From Sorangium cellulosum So ce56 (GTDB taxonomy: Bacteria > Myxococcota_A > Polyangia > Polyangiales > Polyangiaceae): a DNA stretch of 32,000 nucleotides. Positions 378-11,398 of the stretch are shown here, piece by piece. The notes below the pieces were generated by a model. The model had not been told where the DNA came from and made no database searches. It saw nothing but the letters and a program-made list of their open reading frames with translations. The position numbers were made by a program, and so were the translations under genes. The number at the start of each line of letters is the position of its first letter. The first letter of the stretch is position 1. Location of the stretch: positions 8,234,212-8,266,211 of the forward strand of contig NC_010162.1 of the NCBI RefSeq assembly GCF_000067165.1, written 5' to 3'.

Positions 378-492
378 CGTCGTCACTTGCCCCGAAAGGG
401 CGGCGACCCTATCACGCGCGGCGCCGCCGTGCATCTGCGACGTTACCTCTGCGACGTTTACCCTTTGCGCCGCCCTGGGGTAGCTTGTCACG

Positions 493-1344
493 GTGACCCT
501 CCTGCCTGAGCTCGACGAAGCCGCGCGTGTCATTCTCGAACGAATTCCAGCCCCTCCGCGCGTCGGTGTGGTGCTCGGATCAGGGCTCGGCGGCTGGGGC
601 GACGAGCTCGCCGAGCTGGTGAAGGTGCCCTACGCGGACATCCCCGGCATGCCCCGTCCGGCCGTCGCCGGGCACCCTGGCTTCCTGTGCGCCGGCCGCG
701 TCGGGGACGTGCAGGTCGCCTGCCTGCAGGGGCGCGCGCACGTTTACGAGGGGCACCCGCTGGCGAAGGTGGTGTTCGGCGTGCGGGTGCTCGCCCGGCT
801 CGGCTGTCGCGCCGTGCTCCTGACCAACGCGGCCGGCGGAATCAACCCGGGGTTCGCCGCCGGCGATCTCATGCTGCTCACCGATCACCTGAACCTGATG
901 GGAGCGAACCCGCTGGTCGGGCCGAACGACGAGGCGCTCGGCAAGCGCTTCCCCGACATGACCTACGCGCACGATCCCAGGCTGCTCGAGCTCGCGAAGA
1001 CGGCGGCGAGCGACGCGGGCGTCGCCCTGCGCGAGGGGGTCTACGCCGCGCTGCTCGGACCGACGTACGAGACGCCCGCCGAGATCCGGATGCTGCGCAC
1101 GCTCGGAGCCGATGCGGTCGGGATGAGCACGGTCCCGGAGATCATCGCGCTCAGGCACATGGGCGTGCCCGCCGCGGCCATCTCGTGCGTCACGAACCTC
1201 GCCGCGGGGCTGACCAAGCGCGAGCTCGACCACAAGGAGGTCGAGGAGACCGCCCGGGAGGCGCGCGCCCGGTTCACGGCGCTGCTCTCGGCGTGGGTCC
1301 GCCGCGTCGGCGCCGACGTCGCGGCCGGGAGCTTTGCGTCGTGA
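493..1344 (+). CDS. punA: Purine nucleoside phosphorylase (trimeric PNP/PunA type)
   Basis: 283 aa. Family hallmarks are VLGSGLG near the N-terminus, GRxHxYEG, LTNAAGG, GPxYETPAE and GMSTVPE. GTG start at 493. The stop overlaps the next gene's start (GTGA at 1341-1344). Confidence 0.9.
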   Translation: MTLLPELDEAARVILERIPAPPRVGVVLGSGLGGWGDELAELVKVPYADIPGMPRPAVAGHPGFLCAGRVGDVQVACLQGRAHVYEGHPLAKVVFGVRVLARLGCRAVLLTNAAGGINPGFAAGDLMLLTDHLNLMGANPLVGPNDEALGKRFPDMTYAHDPRLLELAKTAASDAGVALREGVYAALLGPTYETPAEIRMLRTLGADAVGMSTVPEIIALRHMGVPAAAISCVTNLAAGLTKRELDHKEVEETAREARARFTALLSAWVRRVGADVAAGSFAS

Positions 1345-1805
1345 GCCGCCCTCCGCGCGACGCCGGCGACGCGCTCGCCTCGGCTGAAGCGGCGCAGACG
1401 ATCGACTGGGACGCGCTCGACCAGGCCGCCCTCGCCGTCCGGACGCGGGCGCACGCGCCGTACTCCAGCTACCGGGTGGGCGCGGCGATCCTCGTGCGAT
1501 CCGGCCGCGTGTTCACCGGCTGCAACGTCGAGAACGCCTCGTACGGGCTCACCATCTGCGCAGAGCGCTCCGCCATCGTGCAGATGGTCGCGGCCGGCGA
1601 GCGCGATCCGATCGCGCTCACCGTCGCCACCAGCGGGCCCGTGCTCGGCAGCCCGTGCGGTATGTGCAGGCAAACCCTCGCCGAGTTCGCCGTGGATTTC
1701 CCGATCCGCCTGATCGCCGCCGAGGCCGGCGGCGTGGCGCCGCGGACCACCTCGCTGTCGGCGCTGCTCCCCGAGGCGTTCGGGGCGGCCGCGCTCTCGC
1801 GCTGA
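1341..1805 (+). CDS. cdd: Cytidine deaminase
   Basis: Tail of track ORF 687..1805. From GTG 1341 it gives 154 aa with the zinc deaminase signature CAERSA ... PCGMCRQ and the APYSxYxVGAA motif. The 4-nt overlap with punA indicates translational coupling in a nucleoside-salvage operon. Confidence 0.9.
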   Translation: MSRPPRDAGDALASAEAAQTIDWDALDQAALAVRTRAHAPYSSYRVGAAILVRSGRVFTGCNVENASYGLTICAERSAIVQMVAAGERDPIALTVATSGPVLGSPCGMCRQTLAEFAVDFPIRLIAAEAGGVAPRTTSLSALLPEAFGAAALSR

Positions 1806-1839
1806 TCGCCCCGAGCGCCCTCCAGGGAGCGCCGATGGC

Positions 1840-4800
1840 TCACTCGATCGAGAGCGCCTCGGCCTGATCGATCTGCGACAGCGCCGCGGCGAGCGCCTCC
1901 CGCGCGCGCTCGAGCGAGACGCGGTCCTCACCCCACTTCGAGCGCGCCTTCTGCAGGCGGGCGCGCTCGACGGCCAGCTGCTCGGTGAGCTGCTCGCCGT
2001 GCGCCCGCAGGGTGTCGCGCTCCTCGGTCCGCTGCGAGAGCTGAGCGCCGAGCTCGCTCCCACGCCGCTCCGCCTCGGCGAGCCGGCCCTGGAGCGCCTC
2101 GATGGATTGCGCCCGCTCGGCGAGCTCGCCCAGCAAGCGCTCGCGCTCCGCGGCGGCCGCGGAGAGCTCGCCCGCGCGCTGCTCCAGCTGCCGATCGAGC
2201 TCCTGCGTCCGGGCCTCGAGGTCCGCGATCTGGCTGCGCGCTTGCCCGAGCTCCGTGGAGAGCCCGCGGGCGACCTCGTCCAGCTCGCGCCGCTGCGCCG
2301 CCCAGGCGGCCTCGCGCTCGGCGGTCTCGGCCTGGTGCGCCGCGCGCGTGTCGGCGAGCGCCTGCGCGTGCGCGGCCTCGAGCTGCGCCTGCCGCTCGGC
2401 GGCGCGCGCCTCGAGCTCGGCCACCCGCTTCGCGTGGGCCTGCTCGGCGTCGCGGACGGCCTGCTCGCGCTCGTCGATGAGCTCGCGCTCCCGCGCCGCG
2501 AGCTGCGTTGCGAAGCTCTCTCGCGCGGCCGCGAGCACCCTCGCGTGCTCCTCCGTCTGCTGCGCGATCGCCCGCGCATGCTCCTCGGCCTGCCCCTCGA
2601 GGGCGCGCGCGTGCTCGCCCCGCAGCGACTCCAGCGCGGACGCGTGCTCGCGATCCCGCCGTCCGTTCTCGTCCGCGTGCTCGCTCCGGAGCCCCTCGAG
2701 GGCGCGCGCGTGCTCGCCCCGCAGCGCCTCCAGCGCGGACGCGTGCTCGCCCCGCAGCGCCTCCAGCGCGGACGCGTGCGCGGCCTGCTGCTTCTCGAGC
2801 GCGGCGGCGTGCTCGTCGCGCGCCCCCTGGAGCGCGGCGGCGTGCTCCGCCTGGGCGCGCTCCACGGCGGCGGCGTGCTCGCTCCGCGCCGCGTCCAGCG
2901 CGGCGGCGTGCTCCCGGTCGCGCCGCTCCGTCGCGGCCTCGTGCTCGCGCCGCAGCGCCTCGACGGCGGCCTCGTGCTCGCGCCTCGACGCGTCGAGCGC
3001 CCCGGCGTGCTCGGCCCGCAGCCCCTCCATGGCGGCGGCGTGCTCGGATTTCGCCCCCTCCGCCGCCGCCGCATGCTCGGCCCGGAGGCGGTCGAGCGCC
3101 GTGGCGTGCTCGCCGGTCAGCTTCTCGATGGCGCCGGCGTGCTCGCCGGTCAGCTTCTCGATGGCGCCGGCGTGCTCGCTGGTCAGCTTCTCGATGGCGG
3201 CGCGGTGCTCGGCGGCCTGCTGCTCGCGCCGGGCGGCGTGCTCGGCGTTGAGCCGCTCCACCTCCGCCCGGTGCGCCGAGGCCGCCTGCTCGAAGCGCTC
3301 GCGCTCCGCCTGCGCGCTCTCCTCGAGCTCGCGCTGCGCCGAGGCCTCGACGGCGGCGATCGCTTGCGTCTTCTCGTCCGCCGCCGCGCGCAGCGCCTCC
3401 GTGTGCGCCGCCTCCGCGTCCATCAGCGCCTGCCGGGCCGACGAGAGATCGGCGTCGCGGGCCGCGATCTGCCCCTGCAGCTTCTCCGCGCGCGCCTTGA
3501 AGTCGTCCGCGCGCTTCGCGGCGAGCTCCTTGTCCGCGCGGAGCGACGCGACCTGTCCGTCGAGGTCCTCGCTCGCGCGCTCGAGCTCCAGGATCCTGTC
3601 GACCTGATCGGCCTTCTCTCGCTCGAGCGACAGCGACTGATCCCGGAGCTCCAGCAGCTCCTTGTCCTTGCGCGACATCTGGTCGCGGAGCGCGAGGATC
3701 TCTTTGTCCTTCTTGTTGAGCGCCTCGCGCAGATCCAGGAACTCGCGGCTCGACACGCCGCCGGGCCTGGAGCCGGCGCCGGCGCCGGACGCGAGCTTCA
3801 CCTTGAGCTCGTCGAGCTCGCGCCGCAGGCGGGCCGCCTCCTGGCTGCCGTCGTTCGCCGAGGAGAGCTCGCCCTCGAGGCGGAGCGAGGTCGCGCGCGC
3901 AGCCGCGACTTCCTTGGTGAGGCGGACGATCTCTCCCTTGGACCTGTCCAGCTCGCCACGCAGACGCTCGATCTCGGCCGTGTCGGCGTCGGAGCGAGGC
4001 GGCGCGGGGGGCGCAGGGGTCAACCGCCCGCGCTCGGAGATCGGAGCCCGGTACGCGGCACCGCGCTCGGAGACCGGAGCCCGGTACGCGGCACCGCGCT
4101 CGGAGACGGGAGCCCGGTACGCGGCCACCGGCGACGAGCTCACGGGCGGCGGCGCCGAGGCCGGCACGGGCGTCTTCGTGGGCGCCAGCGTCCGAGACGA
4201 CGGCGCAACCGAGGGCCTGACGTCGGTGCGCTCCTCCTCCTCGTCGCGGATCAGCCGGGTGAACGCGCCGCCGATGAACTCCTCGATGTCCTCGTCCGAC
4301 TTGCGGGCGTCCGACCGCGCCGCGGCGCCCTGCGGGGGCCTCGGCGGAGCTGAAGCCCGGGCACGATCCTGCGCAACGGCGGCAGGCGGCGCCGGCGGCA
4401 CGGCAGACGGTGTGGCGGCAGGCGGCGGCGCCGCGGACGTCGGCCTCGGCGCGGCAGGCGGCGGCACCGCGGACGGCGGCCTCGGCGCGGGCGGCGGCGG
4501 TACCGCGGACGGCGTGGCGGCGGCAGGCGGCGGCGGCGCCGCGGACGGCGGCCTCGGCACGGGCGGCGGGACCGACGGCGCAACGACGGGCGGAGGCGCG
4601 ACGCTCCCGGGCGTGCCGTCCGAGCCCACGGCGGCCGTGATGATCGTGGGATCGCCGGAGTCCTCGTCGATGTCGGCCTCGAGCACCTCGGCCTCATCGA
4701 TCATGATCGGATCGGCCTCCGCGTCGTCCCCGTCGATCGGGACGTAGTTGCGGATGTGCTCGAGGAGCTCGCCGAACGCGATCGGCTTGTGGATGTAGTC

Positions 4801-5103
4801 CTCCGCGCGCGTCCTGAGCTTGCGGTGCTGCTCGAACGTCTCTTCGCTCGACTCGCTCGACATGATGACGAGCGGGACGTCCTTGAGCTGCACGTCCTTC
4901 TTGAGCTTGTTGCAGACCGAGAAGCCGTTCATGCGCGGCAGCTCGATCGACAGCAGGATGAGGTCGGGGCGCTCGGCCGCGGCCGCCTGCAGGCCGACGT
5001 TGCCGTCGTCGACGACCTGAACGGTGCAGCCGAGGCGGCCCAATTCCGTGCGGAGCTCCCCGGCAAACGCCGGATCGCTCTCAAATACGAGGACTTTCGT
5101 CAT
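1840..5103 (-). CDS. FrzS/AglZ-like protein: N-terminal pseudo-receiver domain, Pro-rich linker, long coiled coil
   Basis: Track ORF 1840..5157. I prefer ATG 5103 (MTKVLVFESD...) because the upstream 18 codons would overlap a good promoter match. Residues 1-120 form a CheY-like receiver (VLVFESD ... DLILLSIELP ... VIMSS ... YIHKP) with Ser where the phospho-acceptor Asp should be. Next come a Pro/Ala-rich segment, three AAYRAPVSERG repeats and about 700 aa of Glu/Ala/Arg/Leu-rich helix. This architecture matches the Myxococcus motility proteins FrzS and AglZ (from memory). Confidence 0.85.
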   Translation of the reverse strand: MTKVLVFESDPAFAGELRTELGRLGCTVQVVDDGNVGLQAAAAERPDLILLSIELPRMNGFSVCNKLKKDVQLKDVPLVIMSSESSEETFEQHRKLRTRAEDYIHKPIAFGELLEHIRNYVPIDGDDAEADPIMIDEAEVLEADIDEDSGDPTIITAAVGSDGTPGSVAPPPVVAPSVPPPVPRPPSAAPPPPAAATPSAVPPPPAPRPPSAVPPPAAPRPTSAAPPPAATPSAVPPAPPAAVAQDRARASAPPRPPQGAAARSDARKSDEDIEEFIGGAFTRLIRDEEEERTDVRPSVAPSSRTLAPTKTPVPASAPPPVSSSPVAAYRAPVSERGAAYRAPVSERGAAYRAPISERGRLTPAPPAPPRSDADTAEIERLRGELDRSKGEIVRLTKEVAAARATSLRLEGELSSANDGSQEAARLRRELDELKVKLASGAGAGSRPGGVSSREFLDLREALNKKDKEILALRDQMSRKDKELLELRDQSLSLEREKADQVDRILELERASEDLDGQVASLRADKELAAKRADDFKARAEKLQGQIAARDADLSSARQALMDAEAAHTEALRAAADEKTQAIAAVEASAQRELEESAQAERERFEQAASAHRAEVERLNAEHAARREQQAAEHRAAIEKLTSEHAGAIEKLTGEHAGAIEKLTGEHATALDRLRAEHAAAAEGAKSEHAAAMEGLRAEHAGALDASRREHEAAVEALRREHEAATERRDREHAAALDAARSEHAAAVERAQAEHAAALQGARDEHAAALEKQQAAHASALEALRGEHASALEALRGEHARALEGLRSEHADENGRRDREHASALESLRGEHARALEGQAEEHARAIAQQTEEHARVLAAARESFATQLAARERELIDEREQAVRDAEQAHAKRVAELEARAAERQAQLEAAHAQALADTRAAHQAETAEREAAWAAQRRELDEVARGLSTELGQARSQIADLEARTQELDRQLEQRAGELSAAAAERERLLGELAERAQSIEALQGRLAEAERRGSELGAQLSQRTEERDTLRAHGEQLTEQLAVERARLQKARSKWGEDRVSLERAREALAAALSQIDQAEALSIE
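2518..3243 (-). repeat. 22 tandem, strictly phased 33-bp repeats encoding 11-residue units starting Glu-His (Ala-His in one unit)
   Basis: On the + strand GTGCTC (the complement of GAG-CAC, Glu-His) recurs every 33 nt without slippage. The starts are 2545, 2578 (ATGCTC), 2611, 2644, 2677, 2710, 2743, 2776 (GTGCGC, Ala-His), 2809, 2842, 2875, 2908, 2941, 2974, 3007, 3040, 3073 (ATGCTC), 3106, 3139, 3172, 3205 and 3238. Units 3106-3138 and 3139-3171 are identical 33/33, as are 2710-2742 and 2743-2775. Confidence 0.95.
4031..4129 (-). repeat. 3 x 33-bp tandem repeat encoding AAYRAP(V/I)SERG
   Basis: Units at 4031-4063, 4064-4096 and 4097-4129 (cgctcggaga[t/c][c/g]ggagcccggtacgcggc[a/c]accg) differ at 1-3 positions. 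They lie between the Pro-rich linker and the coiled coil of the 1840..5103 gene. Confidence 0.95.
4375..4600 (-). repeat. Degenerate GC-rich repeats encoding a Pro/Ala-rich linker (PPPxAPRPPSAxPPP...)
   Basis: Recurrent ggcggcg[g/a]c[a/g]ccgcggacg[g/t]cggcctcggc blocks on the + strand. Translated on the - strand they give PPPVVAPSVPPPVPRPPSAAPPPPAAATPSAVPPPPAPRPPSAVPPPAAPRPTSAAPPPAATPSAVPPAPP. Boundaries are approximate. Confidence 0.5.
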
Positions 5104-5137
5104 GTTCCGGGGTGTGCGCGGGTTCGGAGGGGAAACC

Positions 5138-5167
5138 AAGATATCGGCCCCCTTCAACGAGTGTCAA
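5138..5167 (-). promoter_or_regulatory. Candidate sigma-70-type promoter for the pseudo-receiver/coiled-coil gene
   Basis: On the - strand: TTGACA (5167-5162), an 18-nt spacer, then TATCTT (5143-5138), about 35 nt upstream of ATG 5103. It sits in one of the few less GC-rich patches. This is a pattern match only. Confidence 0.3.
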
Positions 5168-5333
5168 ACACGAGGCTGGCAGCGCAGCTCAGATCGCGCG
5201 GCCGCCGCCCGCCTGCCAATCCTGCCGGCGGGGCGCCGAGCGGAAATCGCCCGGCCCGGGGGCGATACCGCACAATCCTACATGACTCTCGCCGGGGAGC
5301 AGGGAGACAGCGGAAGACCCGCGCGTTCGCCGA

Positions 5334-6503
5334 TCAGGGCGCGACGAAGTGGCCGGGCGCCTCGTCTCCGAAGCACAGCCCCATCTCACGGGCCGTGACG
5401 ACCGTGTCCGAGTCGAGCGGCACCGTCTTCGTCTTGCCGGCGACCTCCTCGAGGGGGACGAGCTCGATCCGGTTCGAGCGCAGCGCCACCATCCCGCTGC
5501 CGCAGTCCTCGACGAGGCAGCGCGCCGCGGCCGCGCCGAAGCGGAGGGCGAGCAAGCGATCCGCCGTCGTGGGGCCGCCGCCCCGCTGGAGGTGGCCGAG
5601 CACCATCGAGCGCGCTTCCTTGCCGGTGCGGGCCGCGAGCTCCTTGGCCACGCGCTCGGCCACGCCCCCGAGCACGGCGGTGCGGCGGAACGCGTCGCCC
5701 GCGTCCTTGATGATCAGCTCACCCCCTTGCGCGTACGCCCCCTCGGCCGCCACGACGATGGAGAAGCGGCGCCCGCGCGACTCCCGCAGGCGGATCTTCT
5801 CGGCGATCGCCTCGAACCGGAACGGGATCTCCGGGATCAGGATGGCGTCGGCTCCGCCGGCGATCCCGGCGTTGAGCGCGATCCAGCCCGCGTGCCGCCC
5901 CATCACCTCCACGACCATGATCCGCTCGTGCGCCTCGGTCGTGGTGTGGAGCCGGTCGAGCGCCTCGGTCGCGATGGAGACCGCCGTGTCGAAGCCGAAC
6001 GTGAGGTCCGTGCAGCAGACGTCGTTGTCGATCGTCTTCGGTACGCCGATGACGAGGGGCAGCCCGCGCTGGAGCAGCTGGTGCGCGATCCGCATGGATC
6101 CGTCTCCGCCCACCGAGATGAGCGCGTCGAACCCCTCCGCGCGAAACCGCCGCACGAGATCCTCGGATCGATCCCGCGGCACGAGCCCGTGCTCGCCAGG
6201 CGTCGGGTAGTGGAACGGATCGCCGCGGTTCGCGGTGCCCAGGATGGTGCCCCCGAGGTGCGCGATGCCCCGGACCCGCTCGCGATCCAGGCGGATGAGC
6301 CCGTCCGGAGCGTCGTCGAGCAACCCGCGGTACCCCTGCCGGATCCCCCACACCTCCCAGCCACGCTCGAGCGCGCCGAGCGTGGCCGCGCGGATCACAG
6401 CGTTGAGCCCCGGCGCGTCGCCTCCGCCGGTACTGATAGCGATCTTTCGTGCCGCCATGAGGCTCGCAGCATCGCGAGCCGCCCCCGGCGACGCAATAGA
6501 CAT
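5334..6503 (-). CDS. pfk: 6-phosphofructokinase (probably ATP-dependent)
   Basis: Track ORF 5334..6827; the N-terminal ~108 codons look like non-coding read-through. From ATG 6503 (MSIASPGAARDAASLMAARKIAISTGGGDAPGLNAVIRA...) the PFK motifs are present: GGGDAPGLN, GGDGS, PKTIDNDV and MGRHAGW. GGDGS rather than GGDD(T/S) favours ATP over PPi as donor (inference). An alternative start is ATG 6458. Confidence 0.9.
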   Translation of the reverse strand: MSIASPGAARDAASLMAARKIAISTGGGDAPGLNAVIRAATLGALERGWEVWGIRQGYRGLLDDAPDGLIRLDRERVRGIAHLGGTILGTANRGDPFHYPTPGEHGLVPRDRSEDLVRRFRAEGFDALISVGGDGSMRIAHQLLQRGLPLVIGVPKTIDNDVCCTDLTFGFDTAVSIATEALDRLHTTTEAHERIMVVEVMGRHAGWIALNAGIAGGADAILIPEIPFRFEAIAEKIRLRESRGRRFSIVVAAEGAYAQGGELIIKDAGDAFRRTAVLGGVAERVAKELAARTGKEARSMVLGHLQRGGGPTTADRLLALRFGAAAARCLVEDCGSGMVALRSNRIELVPLEEVAGKTKTVPLDSDTVVTAREMGLCFGDEAPGHFVAP

Positions 6504-6783
6504 CTCCTCGACCTGGCCTCGAAAGGCACGGATGCGCGTGGCGATTCGACGGAGCGACGGCGGCGGACGGCGGCGAACGCGGCCCGCTGGACGAGCCCGG
6601 GGAGCGCGGCGAGCGAGGAGCGCCTGCGCGAAGCGGCCTTCGCACCCGGCGCGCGTGCGCCGTGTGGTCGGGGCCGCCACGGGAGGGGGGTCGATCCGGA
6701 GGAGCGCAGGCATGACGGTCGCGAGCGCCGGCGACAGGGTATAGGGGCGTGCGCATGCGATCACCCCGGCTGCGTGCCCCTGT

Positions 6784-8013
6784 ATGAACCGCGCCACCCT
6801 GATCCGAGGCATCCAGGTCATCGTCACGCTGACGCTCGCGTCGTTCGCTTACGTCCTCTACAGCGAGATCCACGACAAGCAGGCGAGCCTCGCCGCCGCG
6901 TTCGCGCACGTGCGCCCGGGCTGGCTGCTCGTCGGCGCCGTGCTGGCGCTGCAAGAGGGCGTGTTCGGAGGCCTCAGGATCTGGACCCTCGGGCGCGTCC
7001 TCTGGCCCGAGCTCCGCGTCCGTACCGCGGTGACCTCGGAGTTCGTGCTGATGTTCTGCGCCGGGGTGACCCCCGGACAGGCCGGCGCGGCGCCGTCGCA
7101 GGCCGCCGTGCTCGTGCACGGCGGCATGCGGCTCGTCGACGTGGCCACGGCGGAGCTGCTCACCGCCTCGTGCACGATCACCTTCTTCCTCCTGTCTGCC
7201 GTGGTCATCTTCGTGCTGCAGCAGGGCGGGATGCTGGTCGTGCAGGCGGGCGCTCAGATCGAGTGGCTGCTCCTCTTCACCGTCGTGATGTTCGGCTCGG
7301 CCCTCGTCGCGCTCATCGCCGCGGCGGCGTACCCGCCGCTCCTCAAGGGGATCGTCCGCGCGCTGTCGGTGCCGCTCGGGAAGCTCCTGCGCGCGGCCCT
7401 GCGAGGCGCCCGGCGCGTGCCCCGGCTGCGGGCCCGCGCCGAGGCCGCGCTCGCCGCCCCCGGCGCCACGACCGCGCGCCTGCTGCTCGGCGTGGACGAG
7501 TTCCACCGCGGCTTCCGCATCTACATGCGCCGCGGAAAGCGCGCCTACGCCGCCGCGCTGCTGCTCACGTTCGGCTTCTTCTGCTCGCGGTTCGCCGTCG
7601 CCTACTTCATCCTGCTCGGGCTCGGCATTCCGACCTCGCCCTCGACGTTCGTCTCGGTGGGCCCGCCGATCGTGCAGGTCGTCCTGATCCAGACGCTGCT
7701 CAACTTCGCGCTCTACATGACCCCCACGCCCGGCGCGAGCGGCGTCGCCGAGCTCGGCTCGAACGCGCTCATGTCGCCCTGGGTCCACGGCGCGTTCGTG
7801 GTGCCGTACGTCGTCCTCTGGCGGGTGCTCACCCTGTTCCTCTGCATGTTCGTCGGGGGGGTCTACGTCTTCCGCTACCTCGGCACCGACGTGCTCGAGC
7901 AGCGCGTGAAGCAGACGGAGGCGGAGAAGCGCGCGCTCGCGGAGGCGGCGCGCGCCGGGAAGGCGCCGCTGGGTGGAGAGGACACCACCGACCGGCAGCA
8001 AGGCGTGGGGTGA
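6784..8013 (+). CDS. Polytopic membrane protein, UPF0104 / LPG-synthase-TM (flippase-like) family
   Basis: 409 aa with about 8 hydrophobic segments. The N-terminal layout (short charged head, TM, then ...RPGWLLVGAVLALQ...GLRIWTL...) resembles PF03706-type proteins as I remember them. The family assignment is tentative; the coding call is solid on GC3 and hydrophobic periodicity. Confidence 0.6.
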   Translation: MNRATLIRGIQVIVTLTLASFAYVLYSEIHDKQASLAAAFAHVRPGWLLVGAVLALQEGVFGGLRIWTLGRVLWPELRVRTAVTSEFVLMFCAGVTPGQAGAAPSQAAVLVHGGMRLVDVATAELLTASCTITFFLLSAVVIFVLQQGGMLVVQAGAQIEWLLLFTVVMFGSALVALIAAAAYPPLLKGIVRALSVPLGKLLRAALRGARRVPRLRARAEAALAAPGATTARLLLGVDEFHRGFRIYMRRGKRAYAAALLLTFGFFCSRFAVAYFILLGLGIPTSPSTFVSVGPPIVQVVLIQTLLNFALYMTPTPGASGVAELGSNALMSPWVHGAFVVPYVVLWRVLTLFLCMFVGGVYVFRYLGTDVLEQRVKQTEAEKRALAEAARAGKAPLGGEDTTDRQQGVG

Positions 8014-8038
8014 CGCGGGAATGGGGGTGGCGCGGTCG

Positions 8039-8074
8039 GCGCGGCTGGCGCAGGCCGGCCCGCGAAAGCCGCGC
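8039..8074. other. GC-rich inverted repeat between convergent genes (possible bidirectional terminator)
   Basis: gcgcggct (8039-8046) pairs perfectly with agccgcgc (8067-8074). The 20-nt interior contains the palindrome ggccggcc. It lies between the stop at 8013 (+) and the stop at 8086 (-). There is no U-tract, so function is uncertain. Confidence 0.25.
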
Positions 8075-8085
8075 CCGGCGCGGGA

Positions 8086-9570
8086 TCAGCGCGCGGAGAT
8101 CGGCACGGCCGCGAACTGGACGAGCTTCCCGCGCCGCACCTTGAGGAGGGCGACGGACCCGTCCTTGAGCTTGGCGATGGCCGCCCGGAGCCCGGCGACG
8201 TCCTTCACCGGGGCGCCGTTCACCTCGAGGATCACGTCGCCCACCTCGATCTCCTGGACCTTGCTGCCCGAGGCGAACCCGTCGACCCGCACGCCGCCGC
8301 CCGGGGCCTCGGAGACCTGGATGCCGAGCTTCTCGGCGCTCAGCTGGCGCTCGGGCCGGGCGCCCTGGCTCGGCCGCGCGCGGCTCGCCGCGTCGCCTTC
8401 CTCGTCCTGGAGCGCGTCCAGCTTGGCCACGACCTGTTGCTGCTTCTGGGCGCGCACCAGCGTCACCGCGATCTCCGAGCCGGGCGCGTTGCGCGCCACG
8501 TTGCGCCGCAGCTCCTCGGCGTGGTGGATGGGGACGCCGTTCACGTTCACGATCACGTCGCCCGGCTTGATGCCGGCGCGCGCGGCCGCGCCGCCCGGCT
8601 CGACCTCGGCGACGAGCGCGCCCCGAGGCCCGTCGAGCTGGAGCGCCGCGGCGAGATCGCGCGTGACGGGCTGGAACAGGAGGCCGAGCTTGCCGCGCTC
8701 GACGAAGCCCTTCTCGCGGAGCTGCGGGAGCACGTCCTTCAGCGCGTCGATCGGGATCGCGAAGCCGATCCCGTTCGCGCCCGCCCGGATCGCGGTGTTG
8801 ATGCCCACGACCTCGCCCCGCCAGTTGAACAGCGGGCCGCCGCTGTTGCCCGGGTTGATCGACGCGTCGGTCTGGATGAAGTCGTCGTACGGCCCCGCGC
8901 CGATCGCGCGCGCCTTCGCGCTGACGATGCCGAGCGTGACCGTGTGGCCGAGCCCGAAGGGGTTGCCGACCGCGAGCACGTGCTCGCCGACCCGCAGCTG
9001 CTCGCTCGCCCCGAGCGGCGCCACAGGCAGGCCGGTCGCGCCCTTCAGGCGGAGGAGCGCGAGATCGAGCTTGGGATCGCGGCCGACGACCTCGGCCTCG
9101 AACTCCCGCTCGTCGGCGAGCCGCACGCGGACGCCGGACGCGTCGTGGATGACGTGCTCGTTCGTCACGACGTAGCCGCTCGGGTCGATGATGAAGCCGG
9201 TCCCGAGCGCCGTCTGCGTCGGCTGCTGGCCCCGCGGGTTGAGCCGTCCGCCGCCTTGCGGACCGAAGAAGAACTGGAAGGGGTCGAGCCCTTCGGACCC
9301 CTTGACCTCATGCGTCGTCGTGATGTTGACGACCATCGGCTTGACCCGCTCCGACAGGGCGGCGACATCGAAGGTGGCCGGCACCGGCGCCGTCGTCGGC
9401 GGGAGCGTCACGGTCGCGACCGGCGGCGCCGCGGCCTGCGGCGAGGCGGCGGCCTGGGTGGAAGGAGGCGTGGCGTGGGCCTGTTGACCGCAACCGCCGA
9501 TGGCCATCGCCGCCGCCGTGAGCAGCGCGAGGGCCGAAGCGCGAGGGCGAGAGGAAACCGCTTGAATCAT
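8086..9570 (-). CDS. htrA: HtrA/DegP/DegQ-family periplasmic serine protease with two PDZ domains
   Basis: Track ORF 8086..9675. Start set at ATG 9570 (MIQAVSSRPRASALALLTAAAMAIGGCGQ...), which follows GGAG by 6 nt. The catalytic triad contexts are TNEHV (His), DLALLRL (Asp) and GNSGGPL (Ser). Two PDZ-like segments follow (GALVAEVEPGGAAARAGIKPGDVI and GVRVDGFASGSKVQEIEVGDVILEVNG). The signal peptide has a possible lipobox, IGGC. Confidence 0.9.
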   Translation of the reverse strand: MIQAVSSRPRASALALLTAAAMAIGGCGQQAHATPPSTQAAASPQAAAPPVATVTLPPTTAPVPATFDVAALSERVKPMVVNITTTHEVKGSEGLDPFQFFFGPQGGGRLNPRGQQPTQTALGTGFIIDPSGYVVTNEHVIHDASGVRVRLADEREFEAEVVGRDPKLDLALLRLKGATGLPVAPLGASEQLRVGEHVLAVGNPFGLGHTVTLGIVSAKARAIGAGPYDDFIQTDASINPGNSGGPLFNWRGEVVGINTAIRAGANGIGFAIPIDALKDVLPQLREKGFVERGKLGLLFQPVTRDLAAALQLDGPRGALVAEVEPGGAAARAGIKPGDVIVNVNGVPIHHAEELRRNVARNAPGSEIAVTLVRAQKQQQVVAKLDALQDEEGDAASRARPSQGARPERQLSAEKLGIQVSEAPGGGVRVDGFASGSKVQEIEVGDVILEVNGAPVKDVAGLRAAIAKLKDGSVALLKVRRGKLVQFAAVPISAR

Positions 9571-9734
9571 GAAATCTCCGTCGGGCAGTCGAAGGGTCCC
9601 GTCTTGCCATCGACGAACATGGGACCGACTGCGTTCATTCCGCCGCACCAATAACGCCGCAGCCTCGGCTGACAAGAGCGCTCTCCTCGGTCCGCGCGAG
9701 CGGGCGCCGCGCCTGCCTGCCCGTCCATGGCGGG

Positions 9735-9761
9735 ACGCGCGGCACGCGCGGCACGCGCGAC
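9735..9761. repeat. 3 x 9-bp tandem repeat (ACGCGCGGC) in the htrA/proC divergent intergenic region
   Basis: acgcgcggc at 9735-9743, acgcgcggc at 9744-9752, acgcgcgac at 9753-9761, then a decayed copy acgcagccg. Confidence 0.7.
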
Positions 9762-9844
9762 ACGCAGCCGCGCGGCGGCGTCCGTCGAGATTTGAGCCGC
9801 GCGCTCGGCAAGGCTGCTAGGGTGCGCGCTCCTGGAGGCGAGCG

Positions 9845-10702
9845 ATGGCGAGCGATGAGGGTCTGCTGCGAGGGCGCAAGATCGGGTTTCTTGGCGGCGG
9901 AAACATGGCCGAGGCGCTCATCCGCGGCCTCGTCCAGGGGGGCGCCGTGGGCGCGGAGCAGATCCGCGCGAGCGATCTCAAGAGCGAGCGGCTCTCCTTT
10001 CTCCGCGGGCGCTACGGCATCGAGACCACCGAGGACAACGAGGCGCTCTGCCAGTGGGCCGACGTCCTCGTCATCGCCGTCAAGCCGCAGATCGTCGATC
10101 GCATCCTCGCCCCCATCTCGTCGGGGCTCGGCCGCTCGGACGTCGTGATCTCGGTGGCGGCCGGCGTGCCGATCGACGCCATCGAGGCGCGCCTGCCCGA
10201 GGGAGCGCGCGTCATCCGCAGCATGCCGAACACCGCGGCGATCGCGCTCGCCGGCGCCACGGCGATCGCCGCCGGCAGCCACGCCACGAGCGAGGACGTC
10301 GAGATCGCGCGGACCCTGTTCCAGGCGGTCGGCCGCGTCGTCGTGCTCGACGAGTCGCTGCTCGACGCGGTGACCGGCCTGTCGGGCAGCGGCCCCGCCT
10401 ACGTCATGCTGATGATCGAGGCGCTCGCGGACGGCGGCGTGAAGGTCGGCCTCGGCCGGGACGCGGCGCTGCTGCTCGCGGCGCAGACGGTGTACGGCGC
10501 CGCCAAGCTCCAGCTCGAGACCGGCGAGCACCCCGGCCGCCTGAAGGACATGGTGACGAGCCCCGGCGGCACGGCCATCGCGGGGCTCCACACGCTGGAG
10601 GCAGGCGGCCTCCGCCGCACCTTGATCGACGCGGTCGAGGCGGCGTCCAACCGCTCGGCCGAGCTTGGCGCCCAGATGGCGCAGAAGCTCCGCCGCACCT
10701 GA
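9845..10702 (+). CDS. proC: Pyrroline-5-carboxylate reductase
   Basis: 285 aa. It has the Rossmann motif IGFLGGGNMAEALI and the C-terminal signature VTSPGGTAIAGL. GGAGG lies 6 nt upstream of the ATG. Confidence 0.92.
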   Translation: MASDEGLLRGRKIGFLGGGNMAEALIRGLVQGGAVGAEQIRASDLKSERLSFLRGRYGIETTEDNEALCQWADVLVIAVKPQIVDRILAPISSGLGRSDVVISVAAGVPIDAIEARLPEGARVIRSMPNTAAIALAGATAIAAGSHATSEDVEIARTLFQAVGRVVVLDESLLDAVTGLSGSGPAYVMLMIEALADGGVKVGLGRDAALLLAAQTVYGAAKLQLETGEHPGRLKDMVTSPGGTAIAGLHTLEAGGLRRTLIDAVEAASNRSAELGAQMAQKLRRT

Positions 10703-10930: not shown

Positions 10931-11398
10931 GTCGCAGCGGGACAGGCGATCGCCGGCGGACGGGGAAACCCGGCCGCGGGAGGAAAGTCCGAGCTCCGCA
11001 GGGCAGGGTGCCGGGTAACGCCCGGTGAGAGCGATCTCGAGGAAAGTGCAACAGAGAACAGACCGCCGCGCCGCGCGCTTCGCAAGGGCAACGAGCCTCC
11101 AGCCCGGATGGGCTGGGCTCCGAGCCTCCGCTGGCTCGCCGCGCGGCAAGGGTGAAACGGCGGGGTAAGAGCCCACCGCGCCCTTGGCAACAAGGGCGGC
11201 ACGGCAAACCCCACCTGGAGCAAGGCCGCGTAGGGAGGCGTCTGCGACGGCGACAGCCGCCGCGGCAAGGGCTGCCCGCCCCAGGCCTCCGGGTTGGCTG
11301 CTTGAGGCGCGTGGCGACGCGCGTCCTAGAGGAATGATCGCCGGCGCGAGGGGGGCGACTCCCCGCGCAACAGAACTCGGCTTACGTCTCCTGCGACC
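10931..11398 (+). ncRNA. rnpB: RNase P RNA, bacterial type A
   Basis: Universal core blocks are present in order: GAGGAAAGTCCGAGCTCCGCAGGGCAGGGTGCCGGGTAACGCCCGG (10978-), GGAAAGTGCAACAGAGAACAGACCGCC, GGGTGAAACGGCGGGGTAAGAGCCCACCGCG, GGCAAACCCCACCTGGAGCAAGGCC, GGGTTGGCTGCTTGAGG and CAACAGAACTCGGCTTAC (11369-). P1 pairs gtcgcagcgggac (10931-) with gtctcctgcgac (-11397). P2 pairs ggcgatc with gatcgcc. The ends are good to about +/-5 nt. Confidence 0.9.

What the first reader, a model, noticed from the sequence alone, without database searches (positions are those of the whole stretch)
2518..3243. 22 perfectly phased 11-residue Glu-His repeats: a hendecad 'histidine stripe' inside a motility-type coiled-coil protein
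Over 726 bp the - strand codons GAG-CAC/CAT (Glu-His; Ala-His once) recur exactly every 33 nt with no indel: EHAARREQQAA EHRAAIEKLTS EHAGAIEKLTG EHAGAIEKLTG EHATALDRLRA ... EHARVLAAARE. Classical coiled coils, including FrzS and AglZ as generally described, are heptad-based. An 11-residue period (3 turns per 11 residues) is the hallmark of right-handed or untwisted helical bundles and of amphipathic 11-mer lipid-binding helices. With an 11-residue period, residues spaced 11 apart line up on one helix face. That would give a near-straight row of about 22 His, each next to a Glu. The row would run about 36 nm (242 residues at 1.5 A per residue). This suggests a pH- or metal-titratable seam or a periodic docking surface. 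I do not know of this being described for this protein family. Two unit pairs are identical at the DNA level (3106/3139 and 2710/2743). That implies recent duplication or gene conversion, so copy number may vary between strains and could be mis-assembled from short reads.
Basis: partly seen in the sequence, partly recalled or inferred. Interest (0 to 1): 0.7.

Follow-up and report, generated by a model that had tools for sequence, protein, structure and literature searches.

The report
Histidine-cored 11-residue coiled coil in FrzS-like protein
A Sorangium homologue of the motility scaffold FrzS carries a long, conserved rod segment of 11-residue repeats in which a histidine sits in the middle of the helix-helix contact face every 1.6 nm; this coiled-coil variant has not been described for the family, and its function is untested.

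Summary
Window 3243..2518 (- strand) encodes 22 gap-free 11-residue units, E-H-A-x-A-[LIV]-E-x-L-R-x, in a 1105-aa ORF (1840..5157).

The protein is a FrzS-type scaffold: pseudo-receiver, disordered Pro-rich linker, then about 700 aa of coiled coil.

Hydrophobic periodicity is 3.5 (heptad) in both flanks. It is 3.67 (11/3) over aa ~570-950, so the hendecad segment is longer than reported.

The His row does not look like a surface stripe. His lies 1-3 degrees from the centre of the apolar face, which is hendecad core position a. Glu and Arg occupy the two flanks, as expected for a parallel coiled coil.

The array is old and appears to be under selection:
- 17 Sorangium species, Chondromyces apiculatus and one MAG keep 20-28 units with His in 93% of them.
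- Other Polyangiaceae keep 0-11 units.
- A Myxococcus-type FrzS has none.
- Whole-unit gains and losses occur even between genomes 95% identical.

Best reading: a near-straight parallel hendecad rod with a buried polar His ladder that sets register and tunes stability. pH or metal control is possible but untested.

Similar His-hendecad arrays occur in unrelated proteins. The closest described concept is the histidine-zipper coiled coil.

Verdict: new variant of a known kind.

The parts
1840..5157 (-). ORF of the FrzS-like protein (1105 aa from TTG at 5157). The likely true start is the ATG at 5103 (aa 19, MTKVLVFESD), which matches the homologue consensus.
   Evidence: GC3 0.94; consensus starts MMTKVLVFESD
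4750..5100 (-). FrzS-type pseudo-receiver domain (aa 20-136). The acceptor Asp is replaced by Ser70. Equivalents of FrzS His92 and Tyr102 are kept (H111, Y121).
   Evidence: 2GKG FrzS, E 5e-21; H111 and Y121 invariant; folded beta/alpha; PMC1974792
3988..4749 (-). Disordered acidic then Pro/Ala-rich linker (aa 137-390). It includes 3 x AAYRAPVSERG (DNA 4028-4130) and Pro/Ala 18/36-nt repeats (4380-4569).
   Evidence: pLDDT < 50
3448..3987 (-). N-terminal heptad coiled coil (aa 391-~570). It includes the family-invariant motif SREFLDLREALNKKDKEIL (aa ~469-488), which is also present in Myxococcus-type FrzS.
   Evidence: (3.5 periodicity)
3244..3447 (-). Degenerate in-phase hendecads upstream of the array (aa ~571-638), with in-phase AH at aa 584 and 628.
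2518..3243 (-). Core array: 22 perfect-phase hendecads, E-H-A-x-A-[LIV]-E-x-L-R-x (aa 639-880). His is at core position a.
2287..2517 (-). Downstream hendecads with His/Trp shifted by +4 residues (aa 881-957; H908, H930, H941, W952).
1843..2286 (-). C-terminal heptad coiled coil and conserved tail (aa 958-1105). The tail motif is KWGEDRVSLERAREAL (aa ~1074-1089).

Best explanation
The block is the centre of a roughly 385-residue hendecad (11/3) section of the parallel coiled-coil rod of a FrzS-type polar scaffold. It lies between two ordinary heptad sections.

Within each unit the core positions a/d/e/h are His/Ala/Leu(Ile,Val)/Leu. The flanks k and i are Glu and Arg. The remaining positions are Ala or polar.

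Because 11 residues make three turns, the helices run almost straight (slightly right-handed). Every 11 residues (about 1.6 nm) the imidazoles of the partner chains meet at the bundle axis. They are bracketed by Leu layers and by inter-chain Glu-Arg pairs.

The most economical role for a buried polar ladder is the one played by core Asn in leucine zippers. It would fix register and orientation in an otherwise degenerate, Ala-rich repeat, and keep the rod only marginally stable and non-aggregating. A side effect would be stability or bundling that depends on His protonation or on bound divalent metal.

Shown here: periodicity, helix propensity, the position of His on the apolar face, conservation, and family membership.
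Inferred: parallel oligomer, burial of His, and the register/stability role.
Speculative: pH or metal switching.
For: - Periodicity: large aliphatic residues alone give a 3.67 peak over aa 639-880. Adding His raises the peak from 22.8 to 52.3. The flanks peak at 3.5. The sliding window shows 3.67 over aa ~570-950.
- Position of His: the hydrophobic moment computed with His excluded points to 97-101 degrees, and His sits at 98 degrees.
- Position composition: E1 21/22, H2 22/22, A3 19/22, A5 19/22, position 6 LIVM 18/22, E/D7 18/22, L9 10/22, R/K10 12/22. Opposite charges on the two flanks favour a parallel arrangement (established g-e' rule for coiled coils).
- Helix: AF2 predicts continuous helix, with pLDDT about 80 single-sequence and about 75 with an MSA.
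- Conservation: 477 units in 20 genomes have His 93%, E1 90%, position 6 LVIM 82%. Landmark units (two '..ERRDR', one 'E[HQ]VAALERQQA') are positionally conserved across Sorangium.
- Non-circular test: in relatives outside that clade, His-His spacing peaks at 11/22/33 (129/100/58 against a mean of 16.8 per lag).
- Hendecad geometry: PMC4786415.
Against: - No oligomer model or experiment was possible.
- AF2 monomers fold the rod back into antiparallel helices (pTM 0.27-0.29). That cannot distinguish an artefact from an intramolecular bundle.
- Position 9 (h) is Leu in only about half of the units and position 5 (d) is Ala, so the core is weak for a stable bundle.
- His replacements are polar (Q, S, R, N, K, Y). 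That fits a polar core layer but fits a surface position equally well.
- There is no direct evidence on function. The neighbouring genes are housekeeping and give no hint.
Confidence: 0.6

Rival explanations
1. Metal-responsive His ladder. The axial His pairs or triplets, possibly with the adjacent Glu of the partner chain, form about 22 inter-helix Zn/Ni/Cu sites. The segment would then act as a metal-dependent zipper, a bundling switch or a metal buffer, as proposed for histidine-zipper coiled coils. This extends the best explanation rather than excluding it.
For: - His is at the axis-facing position every 11 residues, next to a 90%-conserved Glu.
- Histidine-zipper coiled coils are hypothesised to be metal scavengers (PMC8616854).
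- Some relatives carry a second His at unit position 10 (lag 3/8 peaks).
Against: - There is no intrahelical i/i+3 or i/i+4 chelating partner for His: positions -4, -3, +3, +4 are L, R, A, L.
- The cytoplasm holds little free Zn or Ni.
- No metal-homeostasis genes lie nearby.
- There is no sequence match to solved His-zipper proteins.
Confidence: 0.15
2. Intramolecular or antiparallel histidine-zipper-like bundle. The array folds back on itself, or pairs antiparallel with a second chain, and the His residues of neighbouring helices interdigitate.
For: - AF2 monomer models give three to four long antiparallel helices.
- Known histidine zippers are antiparallel hairpins (PMC8616854).
Against: - The break points differ between the two AF2 runs (aa 696-702 and 828-833 versus 666-681 and 835-856) and are not at conserved Gly/Pro.
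- pTM is 0.27-0.29, and Foldseek finds no PDB match.
- Glu on one flank and Arg on the other would give like-charge contacts in an antiparallel pair.
- At 11-residue spacing, interdigitated His residues would be about 8 A apart, too far to stack.
- The flanking heptad segments argue for one continuous rod.
Confidence: 0.1
3. Neutral low-complexity spacer. The array would be an expanded repeat that only sets rod length, with His a frozen accident of the founder unit maintained by gene conversion.
For: - There are identical or near-identical adjacent units in the window.
- Species-specific local duplications occur (L007, L008, L015).
- Whole-unit indels (-2, +1, +1) separate the window from a 95%-identical genome.
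Against: - His is kept in 93% of 477 units (301 distinct), while positions 4, 8 and 11 vary freely.
- Units are positionally orthologous across species, so they are not homogenised.
- His at lag 11/22/33 persists in distant Polyangiaceae whose units have otherwise diverged (SHAxELA.., AHExAxA.., RHQxEhE.., KHAAE..).
- Array length is held at 20-28 units across two genera.
Confidence: 0.08
4. Amphipathic 11-mer (3-11) helix that lies on a membrane or lipid surface, as in apolipoproteins, alpha-synuclein or perilipins. This could help polar targeting.
For: - The only PDB sequence hit of the array is apolipoprotein A-I (E 0.022, in 11-residue register).
- Sub-threshold Pfam Apolipoprotein hits occur in other His-hendecad proteins.
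- The FrzS coiled coil alone is sufficient for polar localisation (PMC9811614).
Against: - The array is net -16 (49 acidic, 33 basic), with Glu on one edge of the apolar face.
- The apolar face is narrow and Ala-rich, with a polar His at its centre.
- There are no Pro punctuations.
- The block is continuous with heptad coiled coils on both sides.
Confidence: 0.07

Closest known systems
FrzS (and its paralogue AglZ) of Myxococcus xanthus
   Same: - Best PDB hit is the FrzS receiver domain (2GKG, E 5e-21).
- The acceptor Asp is missing, and the His92/Tyr102 equivalents are kept.
- The linker is acidic/Pro-rich.
- The 'LR(D/E)A(V/L)NKKDKEIL' motif, the long coiled coil and the C-terminal 'ERA(K/R)xAL' tail are colinear with a Myxococcus-type FrzS.
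- Guzzo et al. 2015 (PMC4546325) state that relatives of Cystobacterineae hold a single FrzS-like copy.
   Different: - The Myxococcus-type FrzS pieced together from L081 has a heptad coiled coil and no His array.
- The Sorangium protein is about twice as long, because of a ~385-residue hendecad insert with a His ladder.
Hendecad (11/3) coiled coils, e.g. tetrabrachion RHCC, rotary-ATPase peripheral stalks, Scy/FilP-type bacterial cytoskeletal proteins
   Same: - 11-residue periodicity of the apolar positions (a, d, e, h).
- Transitions to heptad segments within one rod.
- Slightly right-handed or straight geometry is expected (PMC4786415).
   Different: - Those cores are aliphatic.
- Here the central core position is an almost invariant His, and the repeat is a near-perfect tandem array of more than 22 units.
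- The names of these examples come from my own knowledge, not from tool results.
Histidine-zipper coiled coils (Hartmann and Lupas; PDB 5LOS, CASP14 T1083/T1084/T1087)
   Same: - His- and Ala-rich helices with His in a strictly repetitive arrangement at a helix-helix interface.
- Function unknown, with metal scavenging proposed (PMC8616854).
   Different: - Those are hairpins of two antiparallel helices in which the His residues interdigitate.
- No sequence similarity was detected.
- Here the spacing is 11 residues, inside a very long rod with charge flanks that favour a parallel arrangement.
Apolipoprotein A-I / alpha-synuclein type 11-mer amphipathic repeats
   Same: - 11-residue tandem helical repeats.
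- Weak in-register match to apoA-I.
   Different: - Net acidic, with a narrow apolar face.
- No Pro punctuation.
- Embedded in a coiled coil.

Membership tests
FrzS/AglZ family (pseudo-receiver + coiled-coil polar scaffolds) | N-terminal receiver fold that lacks the phospho-acceptor Asp | tested here: met
   Pfam Response_reg E 5.5e-18. In the alignment to FrzS 2GKG, Ser70 sits in the column where FrzS has Ala (PMC4546325, PMC1974792). S70 is nearly invariant in 24 homologues.
FrzS/AglZ family (pseudo-receiver + coiled-coil polar scaffolds) | [quoted passage not shown] | tested here: met
   QHRKL...DYIHKP aligns with QHRKL...EYVAKP. H111 and Y121 are invariant in alignment A1.
FrzS/AglZ family (pseudo-receiver + coiled-coil polar scaffolds) | Extended C-terminal coiled coil and conserved C-terminal tail, colinear with FrzS | tested here: met
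   3.5 periodicity in aa 400-565 and 960-1100. The NKKDKEIL motif and the ERAxxAL tail are colinear with the L081 FrzS.
FrzS/AglZ family (pseudo-receiver + coiled-coil polar scaffolds) | Polar localisation, and a role in type IV pilus or gliding motility through MglA/SgmX-type partners | not testable with these tools
   No experimental data are available. The neighbouring genes are housekeeping.
Hendecad (11/3) coiled coil | Apolar residues recur with 11/3 = 3.67 periodicity on a continuous helix | tested here: met
   Fourier peaks at 3.67 and 11. AF2 predicts helix throughout.
Hendecad (11/3) coiled coil | Two or more helices packed as a straight or right-handed bundle | not testable with these tools
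   Only monomer prediction was available, and no coordinates were returned.
Histidine-zipper coiled coils | Repetitive His at a helix-helix interface | tested here: inconclusive
   His is periodic and centred on the apolar face. The interface itself was not observed.
Histidine-zipper coiled coils | Antiparallel helical hairpin with interdigitating His, and homology to 5LOS-type proteins | tested here: not met
   No PDB sequence hit other than apoA-I at E <= 10. No Foldseek hit. AF2 fold-back points are inconsistent between runs. The flank charges favour a parallel arrangement.
Apolipoprotein-type amphipathic 11/22-mer lipid-binding repeats | Wide apolar face with basic residues at the polar-apolar interface, often Pro-punctuated 22-mers | tested here: not met
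   Net charge -16, Glu on one interface edge, 0 Pro.

The most novel reading that the evidence does not exclude
The His ladder would be a functional switch. About 22-35 axial His layers would make the FrzS-like rod zip, stiffen or bundle in response to proton or divalent-metal availability, and this would control assembly of the polar scaffold. The same 'His-hendecad' architecture, which recurs in unrelated bacterial, algal and fungal giant coiled-coil proteins, would then be a general and so far unrecognised class of conditionally stable straight coiled coil, distinct from the antiparallel histidine zippers.
Probability: 0.2. Interest if true: 0.8.

Novelty: new variant of a known kind. Interest (0 to 1): 0.55.

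Why it matters
How the FrzS coiled coil finds the cell pole is an acknowledged open question (PMC9811614). In Polyangiaceae this rod contains a conserved, highly regular element that could be tested directly.

For coiled-coil structural biology, an almost invariant ionisable residue at the central core position of more than 20 consecutive hendecads is unusual. It recurs in at least 100 unrelated protein clusters. It offers a natural scaffold with an axial row of imidazoles at 1.6-nm spacing. That could inform work on pH- or metal-switchable assemblies and on protein design.

If instead the His only acts as a register-setting polar layer, the finding is a tidy but modest extension of known coiled-coil rules.

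Tried and rejected
- The search with the FrzS receiver-domain sequence returned only 100-190-aa fragments and no full-length FrzS or AglZ. I instead pieced a Myxococcus-type FrzS from a frameshifted contig. M. xanthus AglZ itself could not be inspected, and the AglZ paper PMC515175 is not held.
- Pfam and NCBIfam give nothing for the repeat block.
- The PDB sequence search gave only a weak apoA-I match. Foldseek of the AF2 model against the PDB gave nothing.
- AF2 could only be run on a monomer, and coordinates are not returned. I therefore could not measure crossing angles or His burial. The two models break the rod at different places, so I treat the fold-backs as artefacts.
- Some hits of the library search with the array are non-helical mucin-like or Cys-rich 11-mers that merely share a periodic His (P0158, P0167, P0178, P0165, P0154). 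I excluded them from the helical class.
- Literature searches for hendecad + histidine, 11-residue repeat + histidine, and Sorangium + FrzS found no description of this array.
- Genomic context is not informative.
Full report
**1. What is there**

The window is high-GC (72%). Over 10.7 kb it is 94.9% identical to, and syntenic with, Sorangium sp. So ce726.

ORF 1840..5157 on the - strand (1105 aa, GC3 0.94) contains the finding. Translating 3243..2518 gives 22 consecutive 11-residue units with no indel. His is at position 2 in all 22 units, and Glu is at position 1 in 21. TRF finds the 33-nt period independently.

They are lag-33 exact runs of 44 nt at 3103-3146 and 40 nt at 2707-2746.

The consensus of the window's units is E-H-A-(A/R/G/S)-A-(L/I/V)-E-x-(L/A/Q)-(R/T)-x.

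**2. The protein**

- Residues 20-136 are a receiver domain (Pfam E 5.5e-18).
- Its best solved relative is the FrzS receiver (2GKG, E 5e-21).
- As in FrzS, the acceptor Asp is absent (Ser70 in the column where FrzS has Ala). [quoted passage not shown] They are invariant in 24 homologues.
- AF2 with a 24-sequence alignment predicts a folded receiver, a disordered linker (aa 137-390) and helix from aa 391 to 1100.
- A Myxococcus-type FrzS, pieced from a frameshifted contig (L081), is colinear with the window protein. The shared elements are the receiver, the acidic/Pro linker, the 'LRDAVNKKDKEIL' motif, the coiled coil and the 'ERAKKAL' tail. It has no His array.
- Guzzo et al. report that FrzS and AglZ arose by duplication within Cystobacterineae, and that relatives hold a single FrzS-like copy (PMC4546325). 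The window protein fits that single-copy FrzS-like lineage.

**3. Periodicity and the place of His**

- Fourier analysis of large aliphatic/aromatic residues peaks at 3.5 in aa 400-583 and aa 881-1105, and at 3.67 (and 11) in aa 639-880.
- Counting His as part of the apolar set raises the 3.67 peak from 22.8 to 52.3.
- A sliding window shows 3.67 dominating from aa ~570 to ~950 and 3.5 on either side. The hendecad section is therefore about 385 residues, not 242.
- It includes degenerate in-phase units upstream (AH at aa 584 and 628). Downstream are units in which His/Trp is shifted by +4 (H908, H930, H941, W952).
- With His excluded from the calculation, the hydrophobic moment at 11/3 periodicity points to 97 degrees (Kyte-Doolittle) or 101 degrees (Fauchere-Pliska). 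His sits at 98 degrees.
- In hendecad nomenclature this gives a = His2, d = Ala5, e = Leu/Ile/Val6 and h = Leu9. The flanks are k = Glu1 and i = Arg10.
- The His row is therefore the centre of the contact seam, not a solvent-facing stripe.
- Opposite charges on the two flanks are what a parallel coiled coil needs. An antiparallel pair would put like charges together. This is an inference from the standard g-e' rule.
- Hendecads are expected to be slightly right-handed, because 3.67 exceeds the 3.63 residues per turn of a relaxed helix (PMC4786415).

**4. Conservation**

A scan of species-representative genomes found orthologues in 17 Sorangium species, Chondromyces apiculatus, other Polyangiaceae and many MAGs.

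| Group | Array | Calls |
|---|---|---|
| Sorangium (17 species) | 22-28 units; 18-25 in-phase His | 19, 20 (L008: 16-unit unbroken chain in 19/44; the register listing in 20 shows further in-phase units upstream) |
| Chondromyces apiculatus | 21 units, 20 His | 19, 44 |
| MAG L015 | at least 20 units, interrupted by an assembly gap | 19, 20, 44 |
| Polyangium, Byssovorax, Minicystis and other MAGs | 0-11 units | 19, 20 |

- Pooling 477 units (301 distinct) from 20 genomes gives His 93%, Glu1 90%, Ala3 81%, position 6 L/V/I/M 82%, E/D7 86%, Leu9 54% and Arg10 53%. Positions 4, 8 and 11 are variable.
- Most non-His units are one positionally conserved unit, 'EQVAALERQQA'.
- Two '..ERRDR' units are also positionally conserved. 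The array is therefore old and not simply homogenised.
- Whole-unit turnover is nevertheless ongoing. Against So ce726 the window differs by -2, +1 and +1 units. Other species show their own local duplications.
- A non-circular test supports the phase. In the coiled-coil regions of relatives outside the long-array clade, His-His spacings peak at 11/22/33. The counts are 129/100/58 against a mean of 16.8 per lag in genome loci, and 168/125/73 against 23 in metagenome homologues.
- In those relatives the rest of the unit has diverged (SHAxELAxAQS, AHExAxAAAKE, RHQxEhEE, KHAAE...) while His stays.

**5. Structure prediction**

AF2 on aa 560-960 without an alignment gives all-helix (pLDDT 81.5, pTM 0.27) with breaks at aa 696-702 and 828-833. 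The full-length run breaks at aa 666-681 and 835-856. The inconsistency and the low pTM indicate that a monomer is simply being folded back. Foldseek finds no PDB match. Oligomer modelling was not available.

**6. Mechanism**

Shown:
- A continuous helical segment with 11/3 apolar periodicity, embedded between heptad coiled coils.
- His at the apex of the apolar face.
- Acidic and basic flanks.
- Strong conservation of His and of array length.

Inferred:
- A parallel, near-straight bundle in which the imidazoles of partner chains meet at the axis every ~1.6 nm.
- The ladder acts as a buried polar layer. It would fix register and orientation in a degenerate Ala-rich repeat and limit its stability.

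Speculative:
- Protonation or metal binding of the ladder tunes rod stability or higher-order assembly.

FrzS coiled coils are sufficient for polar localisation. They form periodic structures when over-expressed in E. coli, by an unknown mechanism (PMC9811614).

**7. Rivals**

- Neutral spacer: contradicted by conservation.
- Lipid-binding 11-mer: the only PDB sequence hit is apoA-I (E 0.022). But the array is net -16, has Glu on one edge and no Pro, and is continuous with coiled coil.
- Antiparallel histidine zipper: this is a described coiled-coil flavour with repetitive His at the interface of antiparallel hairpins, and metal scavenging has been proposed for it (PMC8616854). There is no sequence or fold match. 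The 11-residue spacing and the charge flanks do not fit.
- Metal ladder: compatible with the anatomy but untested.

**8. Wider occurrence**

A full-library HMMER search with the array found 275 representative proteins at E <= 1e-3. Of the top 150, 108 hold at least 5 in-phase His in helical-type units, x-H-x3-[LIVM]-x2-[LIVA]-x2. The query pattern biases the hits toward this shape.

They include proteins that lack the FrzS receiver:
- A 4449-aa Volvox africanus protein.
- A protein with the fungal-type Mcp5/Num1 PH domain.
- A GA-module/DUF285 protein.
- A myxobacterial-looking family (P0152, P0156) with an unknown N-terminal domain. It shares both the array and the C-terminal 'KWGG.T.SLD.AR' tail with the window protein.

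A few hits are non-helical 11-mers and were set aside.

**9. Verdict**

It needs correcting on geometry (core, not surface) and on age (ancient array with local turnover).

It is a new variant of known kinds: the FrzS-like scaffold and the hendecad coiled coil. It has a conceptual neighbour in the histidine zippers.

Function remains inferred.

Noticed in passing
window 10934-11398 (+): Bacterial RNase P RNA class A, 237 bits, full model matched. The match spans 465 nt against a 367-position model, so it carries insertions.
   Followed up: no
window 4028-4130 (-): Three tandem 33-nt units (95% matches) encode AAYRAPVSERG x3 inside the disordered linker of the same protein. This is a second, unrelated 11-residue repeat.
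   Followed up: no
window 4380-4569 (-): 18/36-nt tandem repeats encode the Pro/Ala-rich part of the linker (PPPAAATPSAVPPPPAPRPPSAV...).
   Followed up: no
window 5103 vs 5157 (-): The ORF lister starts the gene at a TTG (5157). Homologues begin at MMTKVLVFESD, so the ATG at 5103 (aa 19) is the likelier start.
   Followed up: partly
P0152 / P0156; locus L082 5001-7217: A different protein family: an unknown ~320-aa N-terminal domain with no Pfam hit, a Pro-rich linker, 19-24 His hendecads and a C-terminal 'FVKWGG.T.SLD.AR' tail like the window protein's KWGEDRVSLERAR. The array plus tail looks like a shuffled module. Neighbours include a Ser/Thr kinase-receiver-SpoIIE protein and a PKS.
   Followed up: partly
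P0157 (Volvox africanus GLI67412.1), P0153, P0159, P0191, P0192: Long helical-type His-hendecad arrays occur in unrelated, mostly giant hypothetical proteins. They include a green alga protein, a protein with an Mcp5/Num1-type PH domain and a GA-module/DUF285 protein. 108 of the top 150 library hits are of this type.
   Followed up: partly
L015 (Polyangiaceae MAG), inside the array: A run of N interrupts the His-hendecad array and the reading frame is lost after it.
   Followed up: no
L081 6001-7900: The Myxococcus-type frzS on this ENA contig is split over three frames, with neighbouring genes also fragmented. These are probably indel errors of the assembly. The gene caller reports only 123-174-aa pieces.
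   Followed up: partly
coiled-coil regions of Polyangiaceae homologues (P0001-P0120, L016-L080): His-His spacing also shows minor peaks at 3, 8, 25 and 30 residues. This implies a second His at unit position 10 (the basic flank) in some relatives.
   Followed up: no
window 484-10702 vs L001-L017: The neighbourhood is syntenic across Sorangium genomes: purine nucleoside phosphorylase, cytidine deaminase, the FrzS-like gene, phosphofructokinase, a LPG-synthase-TM-like protein, an HtrA protease and P5C reductase. No motility genes are adjacent.
   Followed up: partly
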